Source: an uncultured Nitrososphaerales archaeon (GTDB lineage Archaea > Thermoproteota > Nitrososphaeria > Nitrososphaerales > Nitrososphaeraceae). From it: 64,000 nucleotides of DNA. Position 1 is the first letter of the stretch. Every line of letters starts with the position of its first letter. The notes under the pieces are model-generated. The model saw only the letters and a program-made list of their open reading frames with translations, had not been told where the DNA came from and made no database searches. Both the position numbers and the translations under genes were made by a program. The stretch covers positions 288,001 to 352,000 of the forward strand of contig CAVOHZ010000010.1 in NCBI GenBank assembly GCA_963695855.1. The letters are read 5' to 3'. Of this stretch, positions 1-17,977 are shown one piece after another.

Positions 1-825
1 TAATGTAAGAGAGGATAGATCTCTACTACGACTGAGAATAAACCTCGTACATGACAGAACCAGAGTTATGAATAGAGTACATTCCCTGTTGGATAAATAT
101 GATCTGAAATGCAGGTATGAGCATATATTTGGTGTAAATGGTATCAGATGGCTAAAGAGTATAGAACTAAAACTGAAAGGTAATAATGACCAGGTTCAAC
201 TTGCCAACTACATAAAAAATATTGAATTTCTAAATTCTGAAATCAGACAAATTGAAAAACAGAAATCTGCTGAGGCATCGCACAATGAAAATGTAAAGAT
301 ATTGATGAGCATGACAGGAATCGACTATTTTTCTGCAATGCTCATTAGTTCTGAGATAGGAGATATATCCAGATTCAGAACAGCAGAAAAACTTGTCTCA
401 TGGTGTGGATTGTGTCCAACTATATATCAATCAGGTAACTCGATGTATATGGGTAGAATGAAAAAAGATGGAAACAAAAAGATAAACTGGATCATGATTC
501 AGGCAGCGAATACAGCATCAAGGACAGACGAAAGAATGAAAAAATATTATATAAAGATAGCAAAAAGACATGGACATCATGTAGCGATAACTCATGTAGC
601 AAACAAGATGATAAGGATAATCTGGTCAATGCTAACATACAAACAACTGTACAATGAAAGAAAAAAGGAACTATATGAGACAAAACTTAAGAAGATCCAG
701 AATTAATGTAAAGTGATACATCATTGCTATGTATCATACTGACTGACAGATAAAGTATCAAACATTACACGGCAGTAGTAGTATTTGGATAAGGAAAATG
801 ATCAGAAGAGACTTTTACATAGATG
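1..825 (+). mobile_element. IS110-family element, copy A (left part outside window)
   Basis: Reverse complement of 1829-2653. Ends with subterminal IR AGACTTTTACAT (809-820), AGA, then core TG (824-825). Confidence 0.93.
2..706 (+). CDS. IS110 transposase/recombinase, C-terminal part (5' end off window)
   Basis: Identical to the C-terminal part of the 1948-3063 protein; GID...SEIGDISRF and CGLCPTIYQSG motifs. Confidence 0.93.
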   Translation, partial: NVREDRSLLRLRINLVHDRTRVMNRVHSLLDKYDLKCRYEHIFGVNGIRWLKSIELKLKGNNDQVQLANYIKNIEFLNSEIRQIEKQKSAEASHNENVKILMSMTGIDYFSAMLISSEIGDISRFRTAEKLVSWCGLCPTIYQSGNSMYMGRMKKDGNKKINWIMIQAANTASRTDERMKKYYIKIAKRHGHHVAITHVANKMIRIIWSMLTYKQLYNERKKELYETKLKKIQN

Positions 826-1828
826 CCCAACTCATTTTGCCTAACACATTTAGCTAACCAAATCTAGTCATATTATGTGAACTGGAGAAATCACAACGAA
901 TCTCTTGTCAAACGTGGCGAGGTATTACTTGATTGTGATGTTATAGATAACTGGAATACTGAACGAGAGAAGATGAATAAGGACAAGAAAGGAAGGTAGA
1001 AAATTCGTATATCCAGATTCATTGATCAAGTTATTCGGATACATGAGAGCATATTTTCACTTACCTTACAGACAAACAGAAGGCGTAGTTAGGGAACATG
1101 CTTCAAACACACTACCATCTATTCCAGATTATAGTAACATTAGTAGAAGAATAAACAGACTGGATATCAAGATTTCTGATGATGATATAACCAAATCTAA
1201 CTTGCATGATGATAATTTTGTAATTGCAATTGATTCTACTGGTGTTAAAGTTACAAACAGGGGTGAATGGATTAGACACAAGTGGAATGTAAAGAGAGGT
1301 TATCTAAAGATACATGTAGCAGTAGACATAAAAAAGAAGAGAATTTTATCACTGCATGTAACCAGTGAAGAAGTACATGATGGAAAAGTACTTCGAAAAT
1401 TAATAGATGAGATTACAGTAAAGAATAACAAAATGATATATACTGCCATCATCATGGACGGTGCCTATGATAGTAACAAGATCTTTCAGTATCTGTCATT
1501 TAAAGGCATACAACCAGCAATAAAGGTAAGAAAGAATTCCATGTGTAGAAAGAAGACCAATCATTACCTTAGAAACAAGATGGTGAAAATGCAGAACAAT
1601 AATTTGCAAGAATGGAAGGATAGCGATAGCTATGGCAAGAGGTGGATAGTTGAATCTGTCTTCTCCTGTATCAAGAGAATGTTTGGAGAATATGTTACTG
1701 CTATCAGGTTAGAGAACATGATAAGAGAGATAATGTTGAAAGCATCGTTGTATAACTGGTTTCAAAGTATAACTGTTACATAATTATCAATCATATAATA
1801 ATGAGAAAGATTGTTTAAACGAGTTATG
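826..1828 (+). mobile_element. IS5-family (IS903-like) element with both TIRs interrupted by IS110
   Basis: Inner TIR halves (TG)CCCAACTC at 824-833 and GAGTTATG(CA) at 1821-1830. Outer half of the right TIR, ACAAACTA, resumes at 3295-3302. Confidence 0.85.
877..1783 (+). pseudogene. IS5 transposase, frameshifted near 990-1000
   Basis: GTG877 frame gives NWRNHNESLVKRGE (compare NWKEYNESLVRRGE at 16369) and stops at ~999. A second frame continues EGRKFVYPDSLIK with the DDE motifs IDSTG, MDGAYD and RWIVESVFS. Confidence 0.88.
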
Positions 1829-1947
1829 CATCTATGTAAAAGTCTCTTCTGATCATTTTCCTTATCCAAATACTACTACTGCCGTGTAATGTTTGATACT
1901 TTATCTGTCAGTCAGTATGATACATAGCAATGATGTATCACTTTACA

Positions 1948-3063
1948 TTAATTCTGGATCTTCTTAAGTTTTGTCTCATATAGTTCCTTTTTTCTTTCAT
2001 TGTACAGTTGTTTGTATGTTAGCATTGACCAGATTATCCTTATCATCTTGTTTGCTACATGAGTTATCGCTACATGATGTCCATGTCTTTTTGCTATCTT
2101 TATATAATATTTTTTCATTCTTTCGTCTGTCCTTGATGCTGTATTCGCTGCCTGAATCATGATCCAGTTTATCTTTTTGTTTCCATCTTTTTTCATTCTA
2201 CCCATATACATCGAGTTACCTGATTGATATATAGTTGGACACAATCCACACCATGAGACAAGTTTTTCTGCTGTTCTGAATCTGGATATATCTCCTATCT
2301 CAGAACTAATGAGCATTGCAGAAAAATAGTCGATTCCTGTCATGCTCATCAATATCTTTACATTTTCATTGTGCGATGCCTCAGCAGATTTCTGTTTTTC
2401 AATTTGTCTGATTTCAGAATTTAGAAATTCAATATTTTTTATGTAGTTGGCAAGTTGAACCTGGTCATTATTACCTTTCAGTTTTAGTTCTATACTCTTT
2501 AGCCATCTGATACCATTTACACCAAATATATGCTCATACCTGCATTTCAGATCATATTTATCCAACAGGGAATGTACTCTATTCATAACTCTGGTTCTGT
2601 CATGTACGAGGTTTATTCTCAGTCGTAGTAGAGATCTATCCTCTCTTACATTATCTGGAGCAATATATGATTCTGCAATCAAATTAGATCGTAGTAAATG
2701 TGCTAATATTCTAGCATCTAGTTTATCTGTTTTTATCCTTGCTTCTGCTATTGCCTTGGTCTTCAGAGGATTAGCCAGTTTAACATCTATACCATATTTC
2801 TCAAATGCTTCGTATGTCTTTAACCACATATTCGCTGTTGATTCACAAACAGCATGACATTTTCTGTTGCTATACTTTTTATCCAAATGAGAAGCAAATC
2901 TTTCTGCTTCTTGTAGAGTATTATCATATTTTGTTTCTTCTATTATGGAACCATCCTTATCTGTTATACATACAACACAGTTTTTCTTTCCAATGTCTAC
3001 CGCAATATAGTAACTATCATCTTTTCTTGATTCTATTATTTTTTCTTCTATTCTCTTTTTCAC
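1948..3063 (-). CDS. IS110 transposase/recombinase (DEDD RuvC-like domain + Tnp domain with catalytic Ser), intact, 371 aa
   Basis: IAVDIGK, VCESTA, KTDKLDA (D-E-D-D); YQSG serine motif. Confidence 0.96.
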   Translation of the reverse strand: MKKRIEEKIIESRKDDSYYIAVDIGKKNCVVCITDKDGSIIEETKYDNTLQEAERFASHLDKKYSNRKCHAVCESTANMWLKTYEAFEKYGIDVKLANPLKTKAIAEARIKTDKLDARILAHLLRSNLIAESYIAPDNVREDRSLLRLRINLVHDRTRVMNRVHSLLDKYDLKCRYEHIFGVNGIRWLKSIELKLKGNNDQVQLANYIKNIEFLNSEIRQIEKQKSAEASHNENVKILMSMTGIDYFSAMLISSEIGDISRFRTAEKLVSWCGLCPTIYQSGNSMYMGRMKKDGNKKINWIMIQAANTASRTDERMKKYYIKIAKRHGHHVAITHVANKMIRIIWSMLTYKQLYNERKKELYETKLKKIQN

Positions 3064-3110
3064 CTCCTTTTTTTTATTATGATACTAGTATCAGTATACC
3101 AACCAACCAA

Positions 3111-3252
3111 CCAACTAGCCAGACAAAGCTGCAAACATCTATCAGAGCTCTTTATGGCTCACATATACAGCAGCTTACACATATCCCCATTCAACAAGCA
3201 AGACCTTATCCTAGTAAGACAGGTCACGCACAACAAGGGGTTAGCCAGTTGG
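3111..3252 (-). ncRNA. Putative bridge/seek RNA in the IS110 left non-coding end
   Basis: Closing stem 3111-3120/3243-3252. Hairpin 3185-3240 has an internal loop matching the target; hairpin 3126-3176 has an internal loop matching the element's own end junction. Folded by eye. Confidence 0.72.
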
Positions 3253-3302
3253 ATAAGAGAATAGATAACAGGAAAAGACTTTTACATGTATTCAACAAAC
3301 TA

Positions 3303-3472
3303 GCATTTTTGTCTTGATCATTATATTCAGCCAAATCCAACAAAGATTTAATAAAGAATAGTTTATACGTGCTCGATAATTTAGGAGCGCTAAAGAGCGA
3401 ATTAACTTTTACCAGATAATGTTGATAACCACTTTCTTTTTCGTTTTCAAATCGGTTATCTATGTCAAGCAT
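3303..3472 (-). pseudogene. 5' part of a probable HNH-endonuclease-type gene disrupted by the IS5/IS110 composite
   Basis: SSTYKLFFIKSLLDL resembles the N-terminal TYK motif of HNH restriction-like proteins; the frame runs into the IS end at 3302. Confidence 0.5.
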
Positions 3473-3611
3473 TAACGTATTTTATATGAGGACAATATTA
3501 AGATGTAATGTAATAGAGTTAATTTTTTTTACTAAATAACTGTCTTATTTACGAGAGTAACTCATCTTCCTAGTATTCTATAGAATAACATGTAAATGAA
3601 CACTGATAAAA

Positions 3612-4803
3612 ACGGGACCGTAGGGAGTAATAGCTATAGCGGTGCTAAAATAAGAGCCTAATGTTCTATTAATAAAGAACATAATACTTATATTATTTTT
3701 TAAATATAATAGTTCACTTTAGGTGGTATATTTTGTTAATAACGTATTTTGTTAATACCTTGAGATTTATAATTACTTTAGAAAAATTTTTAATCTTACA
3801 ATCTGATTTTATTAACATCGAAATAAAAGCCAGAACCTGCTACTATTGAAGAGTATATCAATAATAGAACGCTATGGTGAATCAAATCTTATTTACAAAT
3901 TAAAATGAAAAGTTACAAATGAAACATCACGCGCCTATCGGAAGTTGAAGAGTCATGGTTTCAGTGTTCAATGTTCATTTCGATTATGAAAAAGTTCGAG
4001 CATAAACAAATGCAATATAGTGACAAATTTCATATATTTTGACTTTTTTATAATAAGGCAGAAATTTTATAATGTATGATAGAAATAGGTTAACACTTAG
4101 TAAGTTAGAGGTTAATGCAACAGGAGGAGCTAATAATTAACTGGTCTAGGAAAAAATATTTTTGATAAGTTTTTTCAAAGGCAAAGGCGTAAGGAATTTA
4201 AAGGTATGGAAGCCAAAGCCACAGAGGCACAAAACCAACACGTCTATAATTAATTTGCTAACAAAAACGAAATAGTCCATGAACAAAATAGAATAGTAAT
4301 ATTAAAAGAGAGGACTGGACTTAGTGATGAGGAGATTTTAGATTCCCTACAACGATTGATTGAAAAGTCAAGTTCTTGCAGTTTCAGGTAAATCACAAAC
4401 AAAACATTCCATAGAAAGAATCCATTTGCATAATTCTATGCGTTTTCTACTGGCTTTTTATCATCTATTTTATCTAATTTTTTTTCCTTTTTTCCAAATA
4501 GTTTACTGAATATATTACAAAACATACTATTATATACACAGAAAGGATATTTAAGTTTGATATTGATTTTTATATTTTAAAAAAGTTTTTTATTATTATT
4601 TTGAAATGTGCTGATTGTATAGAACATTGTAAAGTTAGCCCCTCACCATTTGAATGTCCTGATTGTATTCTTGATAAATGTTGTTGTTGGGAAAATTTCC
4701 ATTTTAGTGACGATAATAATATTATCTAACATATTGAACCCGAGAAAACTACGGGCCCGTAGGGAGTAAGACCGATAGCGGTGCAAAAAGAGGAGTCTAA
4801 TGT
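3612..4803. repeat. Imperfect ~53-bp GC-rich direct repeat (3612-3664 and 4751-4803)
   Basis: ACGGG(A/C)CCGTAGGGAGTAA...ATAGCGGTGC...CTAATGT occurs in both places. Confidence 0.8.
4601..4729 (+). CDS. Cys-rich 42-aa micro-protein (metallothionein/zinc-finger-like)
   Basis: TTG start; MKCADCIEHCKVSPSPFECPDCILDKCCCWENFHFSDDNNII; 8 Cys, two CxxC and a CCC. Confidence 0.55.
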   Translation: MKCADCIEHCKVSPSPFECPDCILDKCCCWENFHFSDDNNII

Positions 4804-16113: not shown

Positions 16114-16308
16114 ACTTTATTTTTGGTTTTTCTAGCTTTTAAAAATTCTATGGATCGTAGAATGTATCAGACTTATTTATTTATTAAATAAATATGACGA
16201 CGTACAAAAATGTAAATATTAGATAGTTTCATCAATTTATTACAGGTTTAAATAGAAAATACTGAAAATATTTAATAAACAGTAATATATAAAATTATTG
16301 TTGTCAGA

Positions 16309-17399
16309 TGCTGTGTTGAATAATTGATTATCATTAAAGCTATATAACAGCATTAAGTAGATCATCCATTGTCCAGTAAAAAGAATAGTAATAATAATCA
16401 AAATACAAAAACAAAAAAGAGGACAACAAAGAAGAAAAGAAACTGGAAAGAATATAATGAATCTCTAGTTCGACGTGGTGAAATAATGTTTGATACTAAT
16501 TTTTTATTGAATTGGCGAGCAGAATTAACAAAGATGAACAATGCAAAGAAAGGGGCAAAATATCTTTATCCGAATTCCTTGATATTGCTGCTCTCCACCG
16601 TACACGTATACTTACTTGCGTACAGACAAATGGAAGGATTTCTAAAGATAATGTCAAAGAATATTCCAAGACTAACAGAAATACCAGATTACACAACCAT
16701 GTGGTGGAGAATAGCAAGAACAAAAGTAGAACTAAATCCTACAATAACAAATCCAAACGGAAAAGAACTAATAACAATAGCAGTTGATTCTACTGGAATC
16801 AAGGTATCTAATAGAGGTGAGCGGATACGTGATAAATGGAATCAAAAAAGAAAAGGTTTCATAAAAATACATGTAGGAGTTAACATAAGAACAAAACAGA
16901 TTATCTCCATGGAAGTAACAAAAGAAAATATTGGTGATGGTAAGATGTTAAGGCCTCTAATACAGCAACAGCAACAACAACACCAACAACAGAAACAAAA
17001 TATAATAATAAGAGTAATAGCAGATTGTGCGTACGATTCTAAAGATAATTTTAGTTATCTCCACAGAATGGGTATGACACCAGTAATCAAGGTAAGAAAG
17101 AATTCATCGGACAAAACCAACAACAATTGTATACCGAGAAAACTGGTTGTAGTAGAACAACTAAAAGATGTAAGGAAATGGAAGAGGAAATACAAATATG
17201 GAATGAGTTGGATAGCAGAATCAACATTCTCTTCAATAAAAAGAACGTTTGGAGAATATGTTAAATCTGTAAAATGGAATAACATAGTAAATGAACTTCT
17301 TGTTAAGGCATATCTCTATAACATGTTTATGAAAGTAATATCAGTCTAATTTAAAAAATCTACAACGATTGCTATGTGTTATATTTATTCGACATAGCA
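16309..17399 (+). mobile_element. IS5-family (IS903-like) element, intact ends
   Basis: TIR TGCTGTGTTGAATAA / TTATTCGACATAGCA; 8-bp TSD TTGTCAGA at 16301-16308 and 17400-17407. Confidence 0.93.
16369..17349 (+). CDS. IS5 transposase
   Basis: NWKEYNESLVRRGE, VDSTG, ADCAYDS, WIAESTFS; poly-Q insert. Confidence 0.93.
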   Translation: MSSKKNSNNNQNTKTKKRTTKKKRNWKEYNESLVRRGEIMFDTNFLLNWRAELTKMNNAKKGAKYLYPNSLILLLSTVHVYLLAYRQMEGFLKIMSKNIPRLTEIPDYTTMWWRIARTKVELNPTITNPNGKELITIAVDSTGIKVSNRGERIRDKWNQKRKGFIKIHVGVNIRTKQIISMEVTKENIGDGKMLRPLIQQQQQQHQQQKQNIIIRVIADCAYDSKDNFSYLHRMGMTPVIKVRKNSSDKTNNNCIPRKLVVVEQLKDVRKWKRKYKYGMSWIAESTFSSIKRTFGEYVKSVKWNNIVNELLVKAYLYNMFMKVISV

Positions 17400-17977
17400 T
17401 TGTCAGAAAATATTAAGACATTACGTTTAAGATTGCCTGAATGTGAGTATAACTATCTTGTGCAAATTTCAAATTATCTACACAAGTAGTTAACGTACGA
17501 CGTGATCTCAAAAAAGAACAAACAAATAAACCAGCAGAACACGTCTAGTTGACTAAAGACATCTGAAAATTTTCCTGTAAGTCATAGACTAGAATCAGGG
17601 AATAAAACAAATACAATATTAACATAACAAGAAAAAAGAATAACAAAAATAACCAGGTCCGATATGAACTAATAATGGAACAAAACATCCGCTGGATAAA
17701 AAAAATTTTGCGTATTGCCTACTAAACACAGAAATAACTAAAAGGGTACATCAGAATATCCCACATTCCAGCATTCCTTGTGAATTAAGGCATGACAAGC
17801 AGATACAGCTGTAACATTTAATAAAGAATGAAGGTTCATCAGATGGAATTTTACAAAATATCTATTAAATTGAAAATATGGTTTATTGTTTTACTTTTGC
17901 TTATGAGTTAGAAATGAAAAAGATCTACATTATTAACCTGTTTGTCAGATAGAATCTGAACAAGTAGAGAAGAATGG

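What the first reader, a model, noticed from the sequence alone, without database searches (positions are those of the whole stretch)
809..3302. Archaeal IS110 that targets the terminal inverted repeats of an IS5 element, with both ends occupied
Seen: two identical IS110 copies face each other around an IS5. Excising copy B at its TG core restores TAGTTTGT-TG-CATAACTC, an IS903-like TIR (compare TGCTGTGT-TG-AATAATTG of the intact IS5 at 16309). Copy A sits at the equivalent TG of the other TIR (TG-CCCAACTC). The subterminal IRs lie 7 nt (core included) from the left end and 3 nt from the right end. Known: bacterial IS1111-group elements such as IS4321/IS5075 target Tn21-family IRs. Inference: this is an archaeal IS-on-IS hyperparasite that uses a multicopy transposon end as a safe harbour and immobilises it.
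Basis: partly seen in the sequence, partly recalled or inferred. Interest (0 to 1): 0.9.

Follow-up and report, generated by a model that had tools for sequence, protein, structure and literature searches.

The report
RNA-guided IS110 splitting IS5 ends
Two identical copies of an RNA-guided jumping gene sit in mirror orientation exactly ten bases inside both ends of another jumping gene in a soil ammonia-oxidising archaeon, which is a new archaeal example of a habit already known from bacteria.

Summary
Two 1462-bp IS110-family elements (A: window 1-823, +; B: 1831-3292, -) are 100% identical and flank a 1003-bp IS5 interior (826-1828). Each is bounded by a TG core. Each splits an IS5 terminal inverted repeat (TIR) 10 nt from its tip, in the orientation the TIR dictates. 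The outer TIR halves are present on both sides, but the predicted 8-bp target duplication is not (ATATACGG vs GCATTTTT). In contrast, 16 of 18 intact IS5 copies in this genome have one. Relatives in three other Nitrososphaerales genomes and nine metagenome contigs give 20 readable left junctions, and 18 carry the same TIR tip beside unrelated flanks. The 229-nt upstream non-coding end folds into a two-loop bridge/seekRNA. Its variable loop strands covary with the left and right target halves. Relatives at 39-53% protein identity keep the architecture but carry other guides matching other, non-IS5 sites. The element mixes traits: long subterminal repeats and IS1111-type guide order, but an upstream RNA as in the IS110 group. 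IS110-family elements that target transposon or IS repeats are already known in bacteria (IS4321/IS5075, IS1383). I therefore rate it a new member of a known kind. Immobilisation of the IS5 is inferred, not shown.

The parts
1..823 (+). IS110-family copy A, its 3' 823 nt. The element starts 638 nt upstream of the window at G000:C10:287362. The transposase C-terminal part ends at 706. The right-end subterminal repeat is at 809-820.
824..825 (+). TG core at the right junction of copy A
   Evidence: TG flanks both sides of all family members examined, except two copies that read AG at the right junction.
826..1828 (+). Interior of the interrupted IS5-family element, i.e. the element minus the outer 10 nt of each TIR. 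The transposase frame is broken by a 4-nt insertion into stop-to-stop frames of 43 and 268 codons.
1829..1830 (-). TG core at the right junction of copy B
1831..3292 (-). IS110-family copy B, complete at 1462 bp. Right non-coding end 117 nt, left non-coding end 229 nt.
1834..1845 (-). Right-end subterminal inverted repeat of B (AGACTTTTACAT), 3 nt from the end
1948..3063 (-). DEDD transposase/recombinase gene, 371 aa (PF01548 + PF02371; NF033542 at 250.5 bits, cut-off 140)
3111..3252 (-). Predicted bridge/seekRNA core, closed by the outer stem CCAACUGGC/GCUAGUUGG
3227..3234 (-). Right-target guide GUUGUGCG on the 5' strand of the target loop. [quoted passage not shown]
3189..3198 (-). Left-target guide CUUGUUG (same sense as the TIR tip plus core) followed by a conserved AAU, on the 3' strand of the target loop
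3162..3169 (-). Candidate right-donor guide UGUAUAUG on the 5' strand of the donor loop. It pairs imperfectly with TG+AATACA.
3136..3142 (-). Left-donor guide AUAGAUG, identical to the right-end terminus plus core. Invariant in the 15 close copies; 5 of the 6 elements keep it.
3276..3287 (-). Left-end subterminal inverted repeat of B (ATGTAAAAGTCT)
3293..3302 (-). Outer 10 nt of the right IS5 TIR (TAGTTTGTTG, the last TG being the core)
3303..3310 (+). Flank where the IS5 target duplication was expected (GCATTTTT). It has no partner on the left side.

Best explanation
A Nitrososphaerales lineage of IS110-family insertion sequences encodes a two-loop bridge/seekRNA in its 229-nt upstream end. 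The two strands of the target loop read the IS5 TIR. The 3' strand (CUUGUUG) has the sense of the TIR tip plus the TG core. The 5' strand (GUUGUGCG) is complementary to TG+CACAAC just inside. The donor loop reads the element's own joined ends (AUAGAUG = right end + core; UGUAUAUG against TG+AATACA). The DEDD/Ser recombinase with this RNA recombines a circular IS copy with the TIR at the TG. No duplication results, and the orientation is fixed by the asymmetric target. Because the two TIRs of one IS5 are inverted, the two insertions face each other. Each insertion separates the outer 10 nt of the TIR from the rest, which most likely disables that end for the IS5 transposase. Shown: the anatomy, site and orientation specificity, and guide-target covariation. 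Inferred: the RNA itself, the circle intermediate, the chemistry, and IS5 immobilisation.
For: Anatomy and family. The columns aligned with the IS621 catalytic motifs are conserved (AVDIG, CEST, KTDKLDA, QSG).

Specificity: 18 of 20 readable unique left junctions carry T[GA][CGT][CT][TCG]TGTTG beside unrelated flanks. Of 11 right junctions, 6 run into recognisable IS5 interior. One more matches an uninterrupted IS5-variant TIR, and one lies 200 nt from an IS5-like gene.

Uninterrupted targets: there are 50 in G000, 17 of them a perfect 13-nt match to both guides. Contigs of run X1 read ...TGCCTTGT directly before window 824 (table 7).

RNA: the fold has five helices that are 99.1% paired over 15 copies, with 2 compensatory pairs, while the loop strands vary.

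Covariation: own guide-site scores exceed permuted pairings. Right side: 70.5 of 88 against a mean of 64.2, with 0.0033 of shuffles as high (n=11). Left side: 117 of 126 against 107.4, with 0.00025 as high (n=18).

Distant relatives: five relatives (39-53% aa) keep the architecture and the right end ACATAGATG. Their guides differ and each matches its own flanks best; in both matrices the diagonal holds the row maximum, tied only where two elements share guides.

Guide combinations: the guide pairs of 5 of 6 close variants occur as intact TIR variants in their own genomes.
Against: No RNA or circle data exist, and Rfam 15 has no matching family. The predicted IS5 target duplication is missing, so the locus has a history I cannot reconstruct. 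Three of 11 right flanks (L024, L027, L034) are not recognisably IS5. Sites A and B each carry an imperfection against the guides (6.5 and 7 of 8 on the right; B 6 of 7 on the left). Meanwhile 17 perfect targets stay empty. The right-donor pairing is weak (6 of 8 with wobbles and a mismatch). The copies are related, so the permutation figures overstate independence. The arrangement was not verified with reads.
Confidence: 0.85

Rival explanations
1. The 10 nt TGCYTTGTTG belong to the IS110 element itself, and the IS merely lies next to truncated IS5 copies.
For: The 10-mer precedes AATACATG in 18 of 20 readable junctions, as a true element terminus would.
Against: The 10-mer varies (CC/CT/TT, T/C/G) while the next 15 nt are invariant. 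Its variation is mirrored in the internal guide. Fifty uninterrupted IS5 tips carry it joined to the right half. Distant relatives have other left flanks that match their own guides.
Confidence: 0.02
2. The facing pair is an assembly artefact, i.e. an inverted duplication made by the assembler.
For: The copies are 100% identical, and no reads of the source could be laid.
Against: The two outer flanks differ, and each carries the correct half: a left-type TGCC tip on the left and a right-type T(A/G)GT tip on the right. A fold-back artefact would not create these. A contig from a public run spans junction A without a difference, though it may come from the source sample. The genome resolves 18 complete 1-kb IS5 copies.
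Confidence: 0.05
3. Target choice is made by the protein recognising the TIR, and the upstream structure is only a leader or regulator.
For: No RNA-protein data exist here. The stems are conserved, as any structured leader would be.
Against: Both loop strands covary with both target halves, among close copies and across relatives of 39-53% identity. The layout matches the published top/bottom strand guides.
Confidence: 0.05
4. The two halves come from two different IS5 copies brought together by recombination between IS5 or IS110 copies, rather than from double occupation of one IS5.
For: The flanking 8-mers do not match, whereas 16 of 18 intact copies have a duplication. The left flank lies beside segmental duplications.
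Against: No reciprocal junction with either 8-mer exists in the genome. The left and right interior ends are of the proper types and the interior is one continuous 1003-bp IS5. This rival changes the history of the locus, not the targeting mechanism.
Confidence: 0.3

Closest known systems
IS4321 / IS5075 (IS1111 group), which target the TIRs of Tn21-family transposons (Partridge & Hall 2003; only the title was seen in reference lists; the paper is not held)
   Same: An IS110-family element with subterminal repeats, inserted at one position and in one orientation inside the terminal repeat of another transposon. Either end can therefore be hit, in mirror orientation.
   Different: The transposase is only 22% identical. 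The host is archaeal. The target is a 1-kb IS5-family IS rather than a Tn3-family transposon. The guide RNA lies upstream of the gene.
IS1383, whose specific target is the inverted repeats of IS1384 in Pseudomonas putida H (Muller et al. 2001; title only)
   Same: An IS110-family IS that targets the inverted repeats of another IS.
   Different: Bacterial. I could not read the paper, so the position in the repeat, the family of IS1384 and any RNA are not compared.
ISEc21 (IS110 family; Siddiquee et al. 2024, PMC11187229, section 12 read in full)
   Same: An upstream non-coding region encodes the seekRNA, the target lies inside another IS (IS3 family), and natural retargeting occurs in a relative.
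   Different: ISEc21 hits the transposase gene, not the TIR. Its bottom-strand match is 5' of the top-strand match, the reverse of the order here. It has no long subterminal repeats.
IS621 bridge RNA system (Durrant 2024, Hiraizumi 2024; passages read)
   Same: A two-loop RNA whose strands read the left and right halves of target and donor around a 2-nt core. The DEDD + Ser recombinase folds the same domains (PDB match E = 3.4e-12).
   Different: The core is TG, not CT. The strand order within each loop is reversed. A conserved AAU follows the left-target guide. Subterminal repeats of 12 nt are present.
ISMtsp17, an IS1111-group member with an upstream NCR (Siddiquee 2024, section 6)
   Same: IS1111-type features combined with an upstream non-coding region.
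   Different: Its sequence was not compared here, so the relationship is unknown.

Membership tests
IS110 family (sensu lato) | DEDD_Tnp_IS110 (PF01548) plus Transposase_20 (PF02371) in a single protein | tested here: met
   (E = 3.1e-27 and 1.4e-24, nearly full profiles). NF033542 at 250.5 bits against a cut-off of 140.
IS110 family (sensu lato) | No target duplication; a short core shared by donor junction and target on both sides | tested here: met
   TG on both sides of A and B, of 7 of 9 close copies and of five distant relatives.
IS110 family (sensu lato) | Non-coding end encoding a bridge/seekRNA with target- and donor-matching strands | tested here: met
   (computational covariation only; no RNA data).
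IS110 family (sensu lato) | Circular intermediate with abutted ends | not testable with these tools
   No reads of the source are available.
IS1111 group | Subterminal inverted repeats of 7-17 bp (definition from passages) | tested here: met
   12 nt perfect, 5 nt and 3 nt from the ends.
IS1111 group | Longer non-coding region and guide RNA downstream of the transposase gene | tested here: not met
   229 nt upstream against 117 nt downstream, with the guides in the upstream end. Exceptions are described.
IS1111 group | Top-strand match 5' of bottom-strand match in the seekRNA | tested here: met
   The guide complementary to the top strand is at IS positions 59-66; the guide complementary to the bottom strand is at 95-101.
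IS1111 group | Transposase clusters with IS1111 relatives | tested here: inconclusive
   22% identity to IS4321 (E = 1e-11). Equally remote from IS621 (E = 3.4e-12). The best plasmid hits are haloarchaeal, at 36%. No tree was built.
IS110 group (sensu stricto) | Long left end, short right end, and no or only 2-3-bp subterminal repeats | tested here: not met
   The end lengths fit, but the repeats are 12 nt and the guide order is reversed.
IS5 family (the target element) | DDE_Tnp_1 transposase, terminal inverted repeats and a fixed-length target duplication | tested here: met
   PF01609 + PF13737. NF033579 at 231 bits. 18 complete copies of 1010-1024 bp, 16 with identical 8-nt flanks. Assigning it to the ISH1 subgroup on the basis of 8-bp duplications is recalled, not tested.

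The most novel reading that the evidence does not exclude
Nitrososphaeria carry their own lineage of bridge recombinases with a hybrid layout: upstream RNA, IS1111-type strand order, 12-nt subterminal repeats, a TG core and a conserved AAU after the left guide. One branch of this lineage has become a dedicated parasite of IS5 ends. Its two guide strands are retuned, between copies only 84-93% identical, to follow the TIR variants of the IS5 subfamilies resident in each genome. This would be a natural, fast-evolving case of guide reprogramming in an IS-against-IS arms race.
Probability: 0.5. Interest if true: 0.65.

Novelty: new member of a known kind. Interest (0 to 1): 0.48.

Why it matters
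It extends RNA-guided, TIR-targeted IS-on-IS insertion to ammonia-oxidising archaea. It provides a compact natural series of closely related guides and targets: 21 junctions, plus relatives with unrelated targets. The rules of an IS1111-order bridge RNA placed upstream can be read from this series. For genome biology it shows one way in which IS5 copies, abundant in these soil archaea, get split at their ends. For tool development it offers a mesophilic archaeal recombinase whose guide positions are already mapped by covariation. It does not overturn anything, because the behaviour and the mechanism are already established in bacteria.

Tried and rejected
I searched the genome for a partner of either flanking 8-mer next to any TIR tip, to explain the missing duplication by IS5-IS5 recombination. 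None was found. Blast of 3 kb on each side showed only segmental duplicates and small repeats, which was not informative.

Two other IS110-family lineages of G000 (42% and 36% aa identity) were checked for IS5-tip flanks. None was seen, and they were not pursued.

Rfam gave only a chance HOTAIR_2 hit at E = 0.6.

Public runs: no holder has more than 0.31 of the words, so the whole arrangement could not be tested. The laid contigs are short pieces (longest listed piece 227 nt) from mixed soil organisms. I use only one bridging contig and the loose ends from that call. Parts without cover are not used as evidence.

I considered that each genome's IS110 tracks its dominant TIR variant. G012 contradicts this: its dominant tip is CTTTGTTG-CACAAC, whereas its IS110 guides fit a variant seen once. 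I therefore claim only that the guide combinations exist as intact TIRs in 5 of 6 cases.

I considered that the three letters after the left-donor guide pair with the right target, as the AAU after the left-target guide matches the first letters of the left end. The letters do not fit in 4 of 4 elements inspected by eye, so I dropped the idea.

No tree was built to place the protein in the IS1111 or IS110 group, because reference sequences were not at hand. Supplementary files of Siddiquee 2024 and Durrant 2024, which hold target lists and trees that may include archaeal elements, were not seen. Literature searches found no paper on a Nitrososphaerales IS110 in IS5 ends; these searches cover only the held library.
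Full report
WHAT IS THERE. The window is G000:C10:288001-352000, in a 3.55-Mb, 31% G+C genome of 11 contigs. Record titles of the closest relatives name Nitrososphaerales and Nitrososphaeraceae archaea. Window 1-837 and 1817-2653 form an inverted repeat.

Blast of copy B with flanks against the genome finds exactly two full copies. Copy A is at C10:287362-288823 and copy B at window 1831-3292. There is also an 87%-identical truncated relic on C8 and a 79-nt fragment. The three mismatches between A and B lie in the IS5 flank, so the 1462-bp elements are identical.

Each element encodes a 371-aa protein with PF01548 and PF02371. It scores 250.5 bits on NCBIfam's 'IS110 family RNA-guided transposase' against a cut-off of 140. 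It aligns with the IS621 recombinase over the motif columns AVDIG, CEST, KTDKLDA and QSG.

The ends read AATACATGTAAAAGTCT... and ...AGACTTTTACATAGA. They carry 12-nt perfect subterminal inverted repeats and a TG on both sides.

THE TARGET. Between the copies lies 1003 bp of an IS5-family element (PF01609, PF13737, NF033579). It is about 90% identical to a family with many intact copies. A motif scan finds 18 complete copies of 1010-1024 bp, and 16 of the 18 have identical 8-nt flanks. The other two look shifted by one base.

The intact ends read TGCCTTGTTG-CACAACTT on the left. The right end, reverse-complemented, reads TGGTTTGTTG-CATAACTC. In the interrupted copy the order is as follows:
- Left side: outer left half TGCCTTGTTG, then copy A, then CCCAACTC...
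- Right side, read on the other strand: TAGTTTGTTG, then copy B, then CATAACTC....

Both insertions therefore sit at the same TG, 10 nt inside the TIR, in the orientation that the asymmetric sequence dictates. That is why they face each other.

The IS5 transposase frame is open for 301 codons in an intact copy. Here it is split into stop-to-stop frames of 43 and 268 codons by a 4-nt insertion.

The 8 nt outside the left half are ATATACGG, against GCATTTTT on the right. Neither 8-mer occurs beside any other TIR tip in the genome. The locus therefore has an extra, unreconstructed step in its history. The left flank borders segmental duplications.

IS THE TARGETING GENERAL? Close relatives (84-93% nt) occur in three other genomes of the genus: G010 with at least seven copies, G018 and G012. 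An exact-pattern scan of metagenome contigs gave nine more left junctions.

After removing duplicates there are 21 unique left junctions, and 20 have at least 10 nt of flank. Of these 20, 18 read T[GA][CGT][CT][TCG]TGTTG, each with a different sequence further out. One exception is the C8 relic. There, a complete IS5 later inserted into the tip stub and duplicated CCTTGTTG. The other exception (L012) is a degraded fragment.

On the right side 11 junctions can be read:
- Six run into recognisable IS5 interior.
- One (L025) matches an IS5-variant TIR that also occurs uninterrupted in G010.
- One (L022) lies 200 nt from an IS5-like gene.
- Three (L024, L027, L034) are not recognisably IS5.

G000 holds 50 uninterrupted tips, so 2 tips are occupied against 50 empty ones.

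THE GUIDE RNA. The 229-nt upstream end folds into an outer stem and two internal-loop modules.

Over 15 copies the five helices are 99.1% paired. There are two compensatory pairs and several one-sided G-U/A-U changes. All slid controls drop to 24-51% paired.

The variable positions fall in the loop strands. In the first module the 5' strand (GUUGUGCG in G000) is complementary to the top strand of TG+CACAAC. The 3' strand (CUUGUUG, followed by AAU) has the sense of the tip plus core.

Variants of both strands follow their own flanks. For example, TCTGTTG pairs with TCTGTTG in L022, TGTGTTG with TGTGTTG in L026, L040, L042 and L044, and ATGCA with the site TGCAT in L026.

Shuffling guides among sites gives lower scores:
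- Right side: 70.5 of 88 observed against a mean of 64.2; 0.33% of shuffles reach it (n=11).
- Left side: 117 of 126 observed against 107.4; 0.025% reach it (n=18).
The copies are related, so these figures are not true probabilities.

Stronger evidence comes from five relatives of 39-53% protein identity, from Nitrosopumilus and other Nitrososphaeria. They keep the stems, the AAU and the right end ACATAGATG (four of the five also keep the GAUAGAUG strand of the second module; L036 reads GATGGACG), but have quite different first-module strands. Each matches its own flanks best. The left guide matches 6-7 of 7 directly abutting the left end, 46-60 nt before the loop. The right guide matches 6.5-8 of 8. 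In both matrices the diagonal holds the row maximum, tied only for L033 and L036, which share guides. Those elements are not in IS5 ends; one sits between GTT and TGTGGT microsatellites. Targeting of IS5 is therefore a programmed state of one branch, not a property of the protein family.

In the second module the 3' strand AUAGAUG equals the right terminus plus core. The 5' strand pairs in a fixed register with TG plus the first six letters of the left end, and it changes with them in the relatives. The margins are small, however: 6 of 8 in G000, and the diagonal holds the row maximum (tied among the three elements that share this strand and left end) but by 0.5-1.5.

HOW IT COMPARES. The strand rules are taken from Durrant et al. 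2024 (passages): the left guide pairs with the bottom strand and the right guide with the top strand. The order here, top-strand match 5' of bottom-strand match, is the one Siddiquee et al. 2024 report for IS1111 members. It is the reverse of ISEc21 (sections 9 and 12 read). The 12-nt subterminal repeats also point to IS1111. The RNA lies upstream, however, as in the IS110 group. The same paper notes rare IS1111-type exceptions with an upstream region (section 6).

By sequence the protein is remote from both reference types: 22% identity to IS4321 and E = 3.4e-12 to IS621. The best plasmid hits are haloarchaeal, at 36%. I therefore file it in the IS110 family and leave the subgroup open.

The behaviour is known in bacteria. 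IS4321/IS5075 insert in Tn21-family TIRs and IS1383 inserts in the repeats of IS1384 (titles only). ISEc21 inserts in IS3-family genes. Three searches of the held library found nothing on such an element in Nitrososphaerales. A 2026 survey of archaeal IS mentions IS110 once and nested insertions not at all (passages).

CONSEQUENCES. Splitting both TIRs 10 nt from the tip should prevent the IS5 transposase from using those ends, and the occupied copy is also frameshifted. This is an inference from how DDE transposases use their TIRs; it was not tested. Seventeen tips that match both guides perfectly remain empty. This suggests low activity, or a recent arrival in this genome.

The guide pairs of 5 of 6 close variants occur as intact TIR variants in their own genomes. 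That is consistent with retuning among IS5 subfamilies. G012 shows that the match is not always to the commonest variant.

VERDICT. The targeting interpretation is supported and given a mechanism. Immobilisation is plausible but untested. I rate it a new, archaeal member of a known kind, with a useful natural guide-target series.

Noticed in passing
window 16301-17409: Intact IS5-family relative (326-aa transposase at 16369-17349). Its TIRs read TGCTGTGTTGAATAAT... and TGCTATGTCGAATAAA..., and it has an 8-bp duplication, TTGTCAGA. Its tip resembles the IS110 left target, but its inner half does not.
   Followed up: yes
L020 = G000:C8:369000-373500: A truncated, 87%-identical relic of the same IS110 with a TGA in its frame. 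A complete IS5 (C8:371391-372408) has inserted into the 8-nt TIR stub beside its left end, duplicating CCTTGTTG. This gives three nested layers of IS.
   Followed up: partly
L027 and L034 (G010), directly after the right end: The right flank reads TGC[AG]CATCTATGAAAATCG.... It is nearly palindromic with the element's own right end and is not IS5. It may be the end of another element with a similar subterminal repeat.
   Followed up: no
L022 and L024, right junction: Two copies have AG instead of TG between the right end and the flank. The L024 flank (GTCCATC) still fits its own guide at 6 of 8.
   Followed up: no
L030 (Nitrosopumilus MAG), around locus positions 2250-3700: A 53%-identical relative sits between (GCT)n(GTT)n and (TGTGGT)n microsatellites, and its guides match these repeats.
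   Followed up: partly
G012, e.g. C2:96317-96457 and C12:116830-116970: Pairs of IS5-type TIR tips lie only 124 nt apart on opposite strands (at least 8 pairs listed). They look like IS5-derived miniature elements and carry the IS110 target sequence.
   Followed up: no
G000:C8:48613-49662, C10:929534-930583; C10:140723, 267169, 1598716: Two further IS110-family lineages (42% and 36% aa identity to this one), with two and three copies. Their flanks show no IS5 tip.
   Followed up: partly
L015 and L017 (G010:C32 and C155): Two copies share the same 30-nt left flank but differ inside. G010 is 6.3 Mb in 360 contigs, so it may hold two strains.
   Followed up: no
G000:C10:284352-286834: DNA left of copy A is duplicated elsewhere: 98.5% identity on C2:82699-84184 and 93.7% on C10:1783154-1784272. 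It includes a gene with a copper-protein-like motif (HCEIHPW); this naming is by eye only.
   Followed up: no
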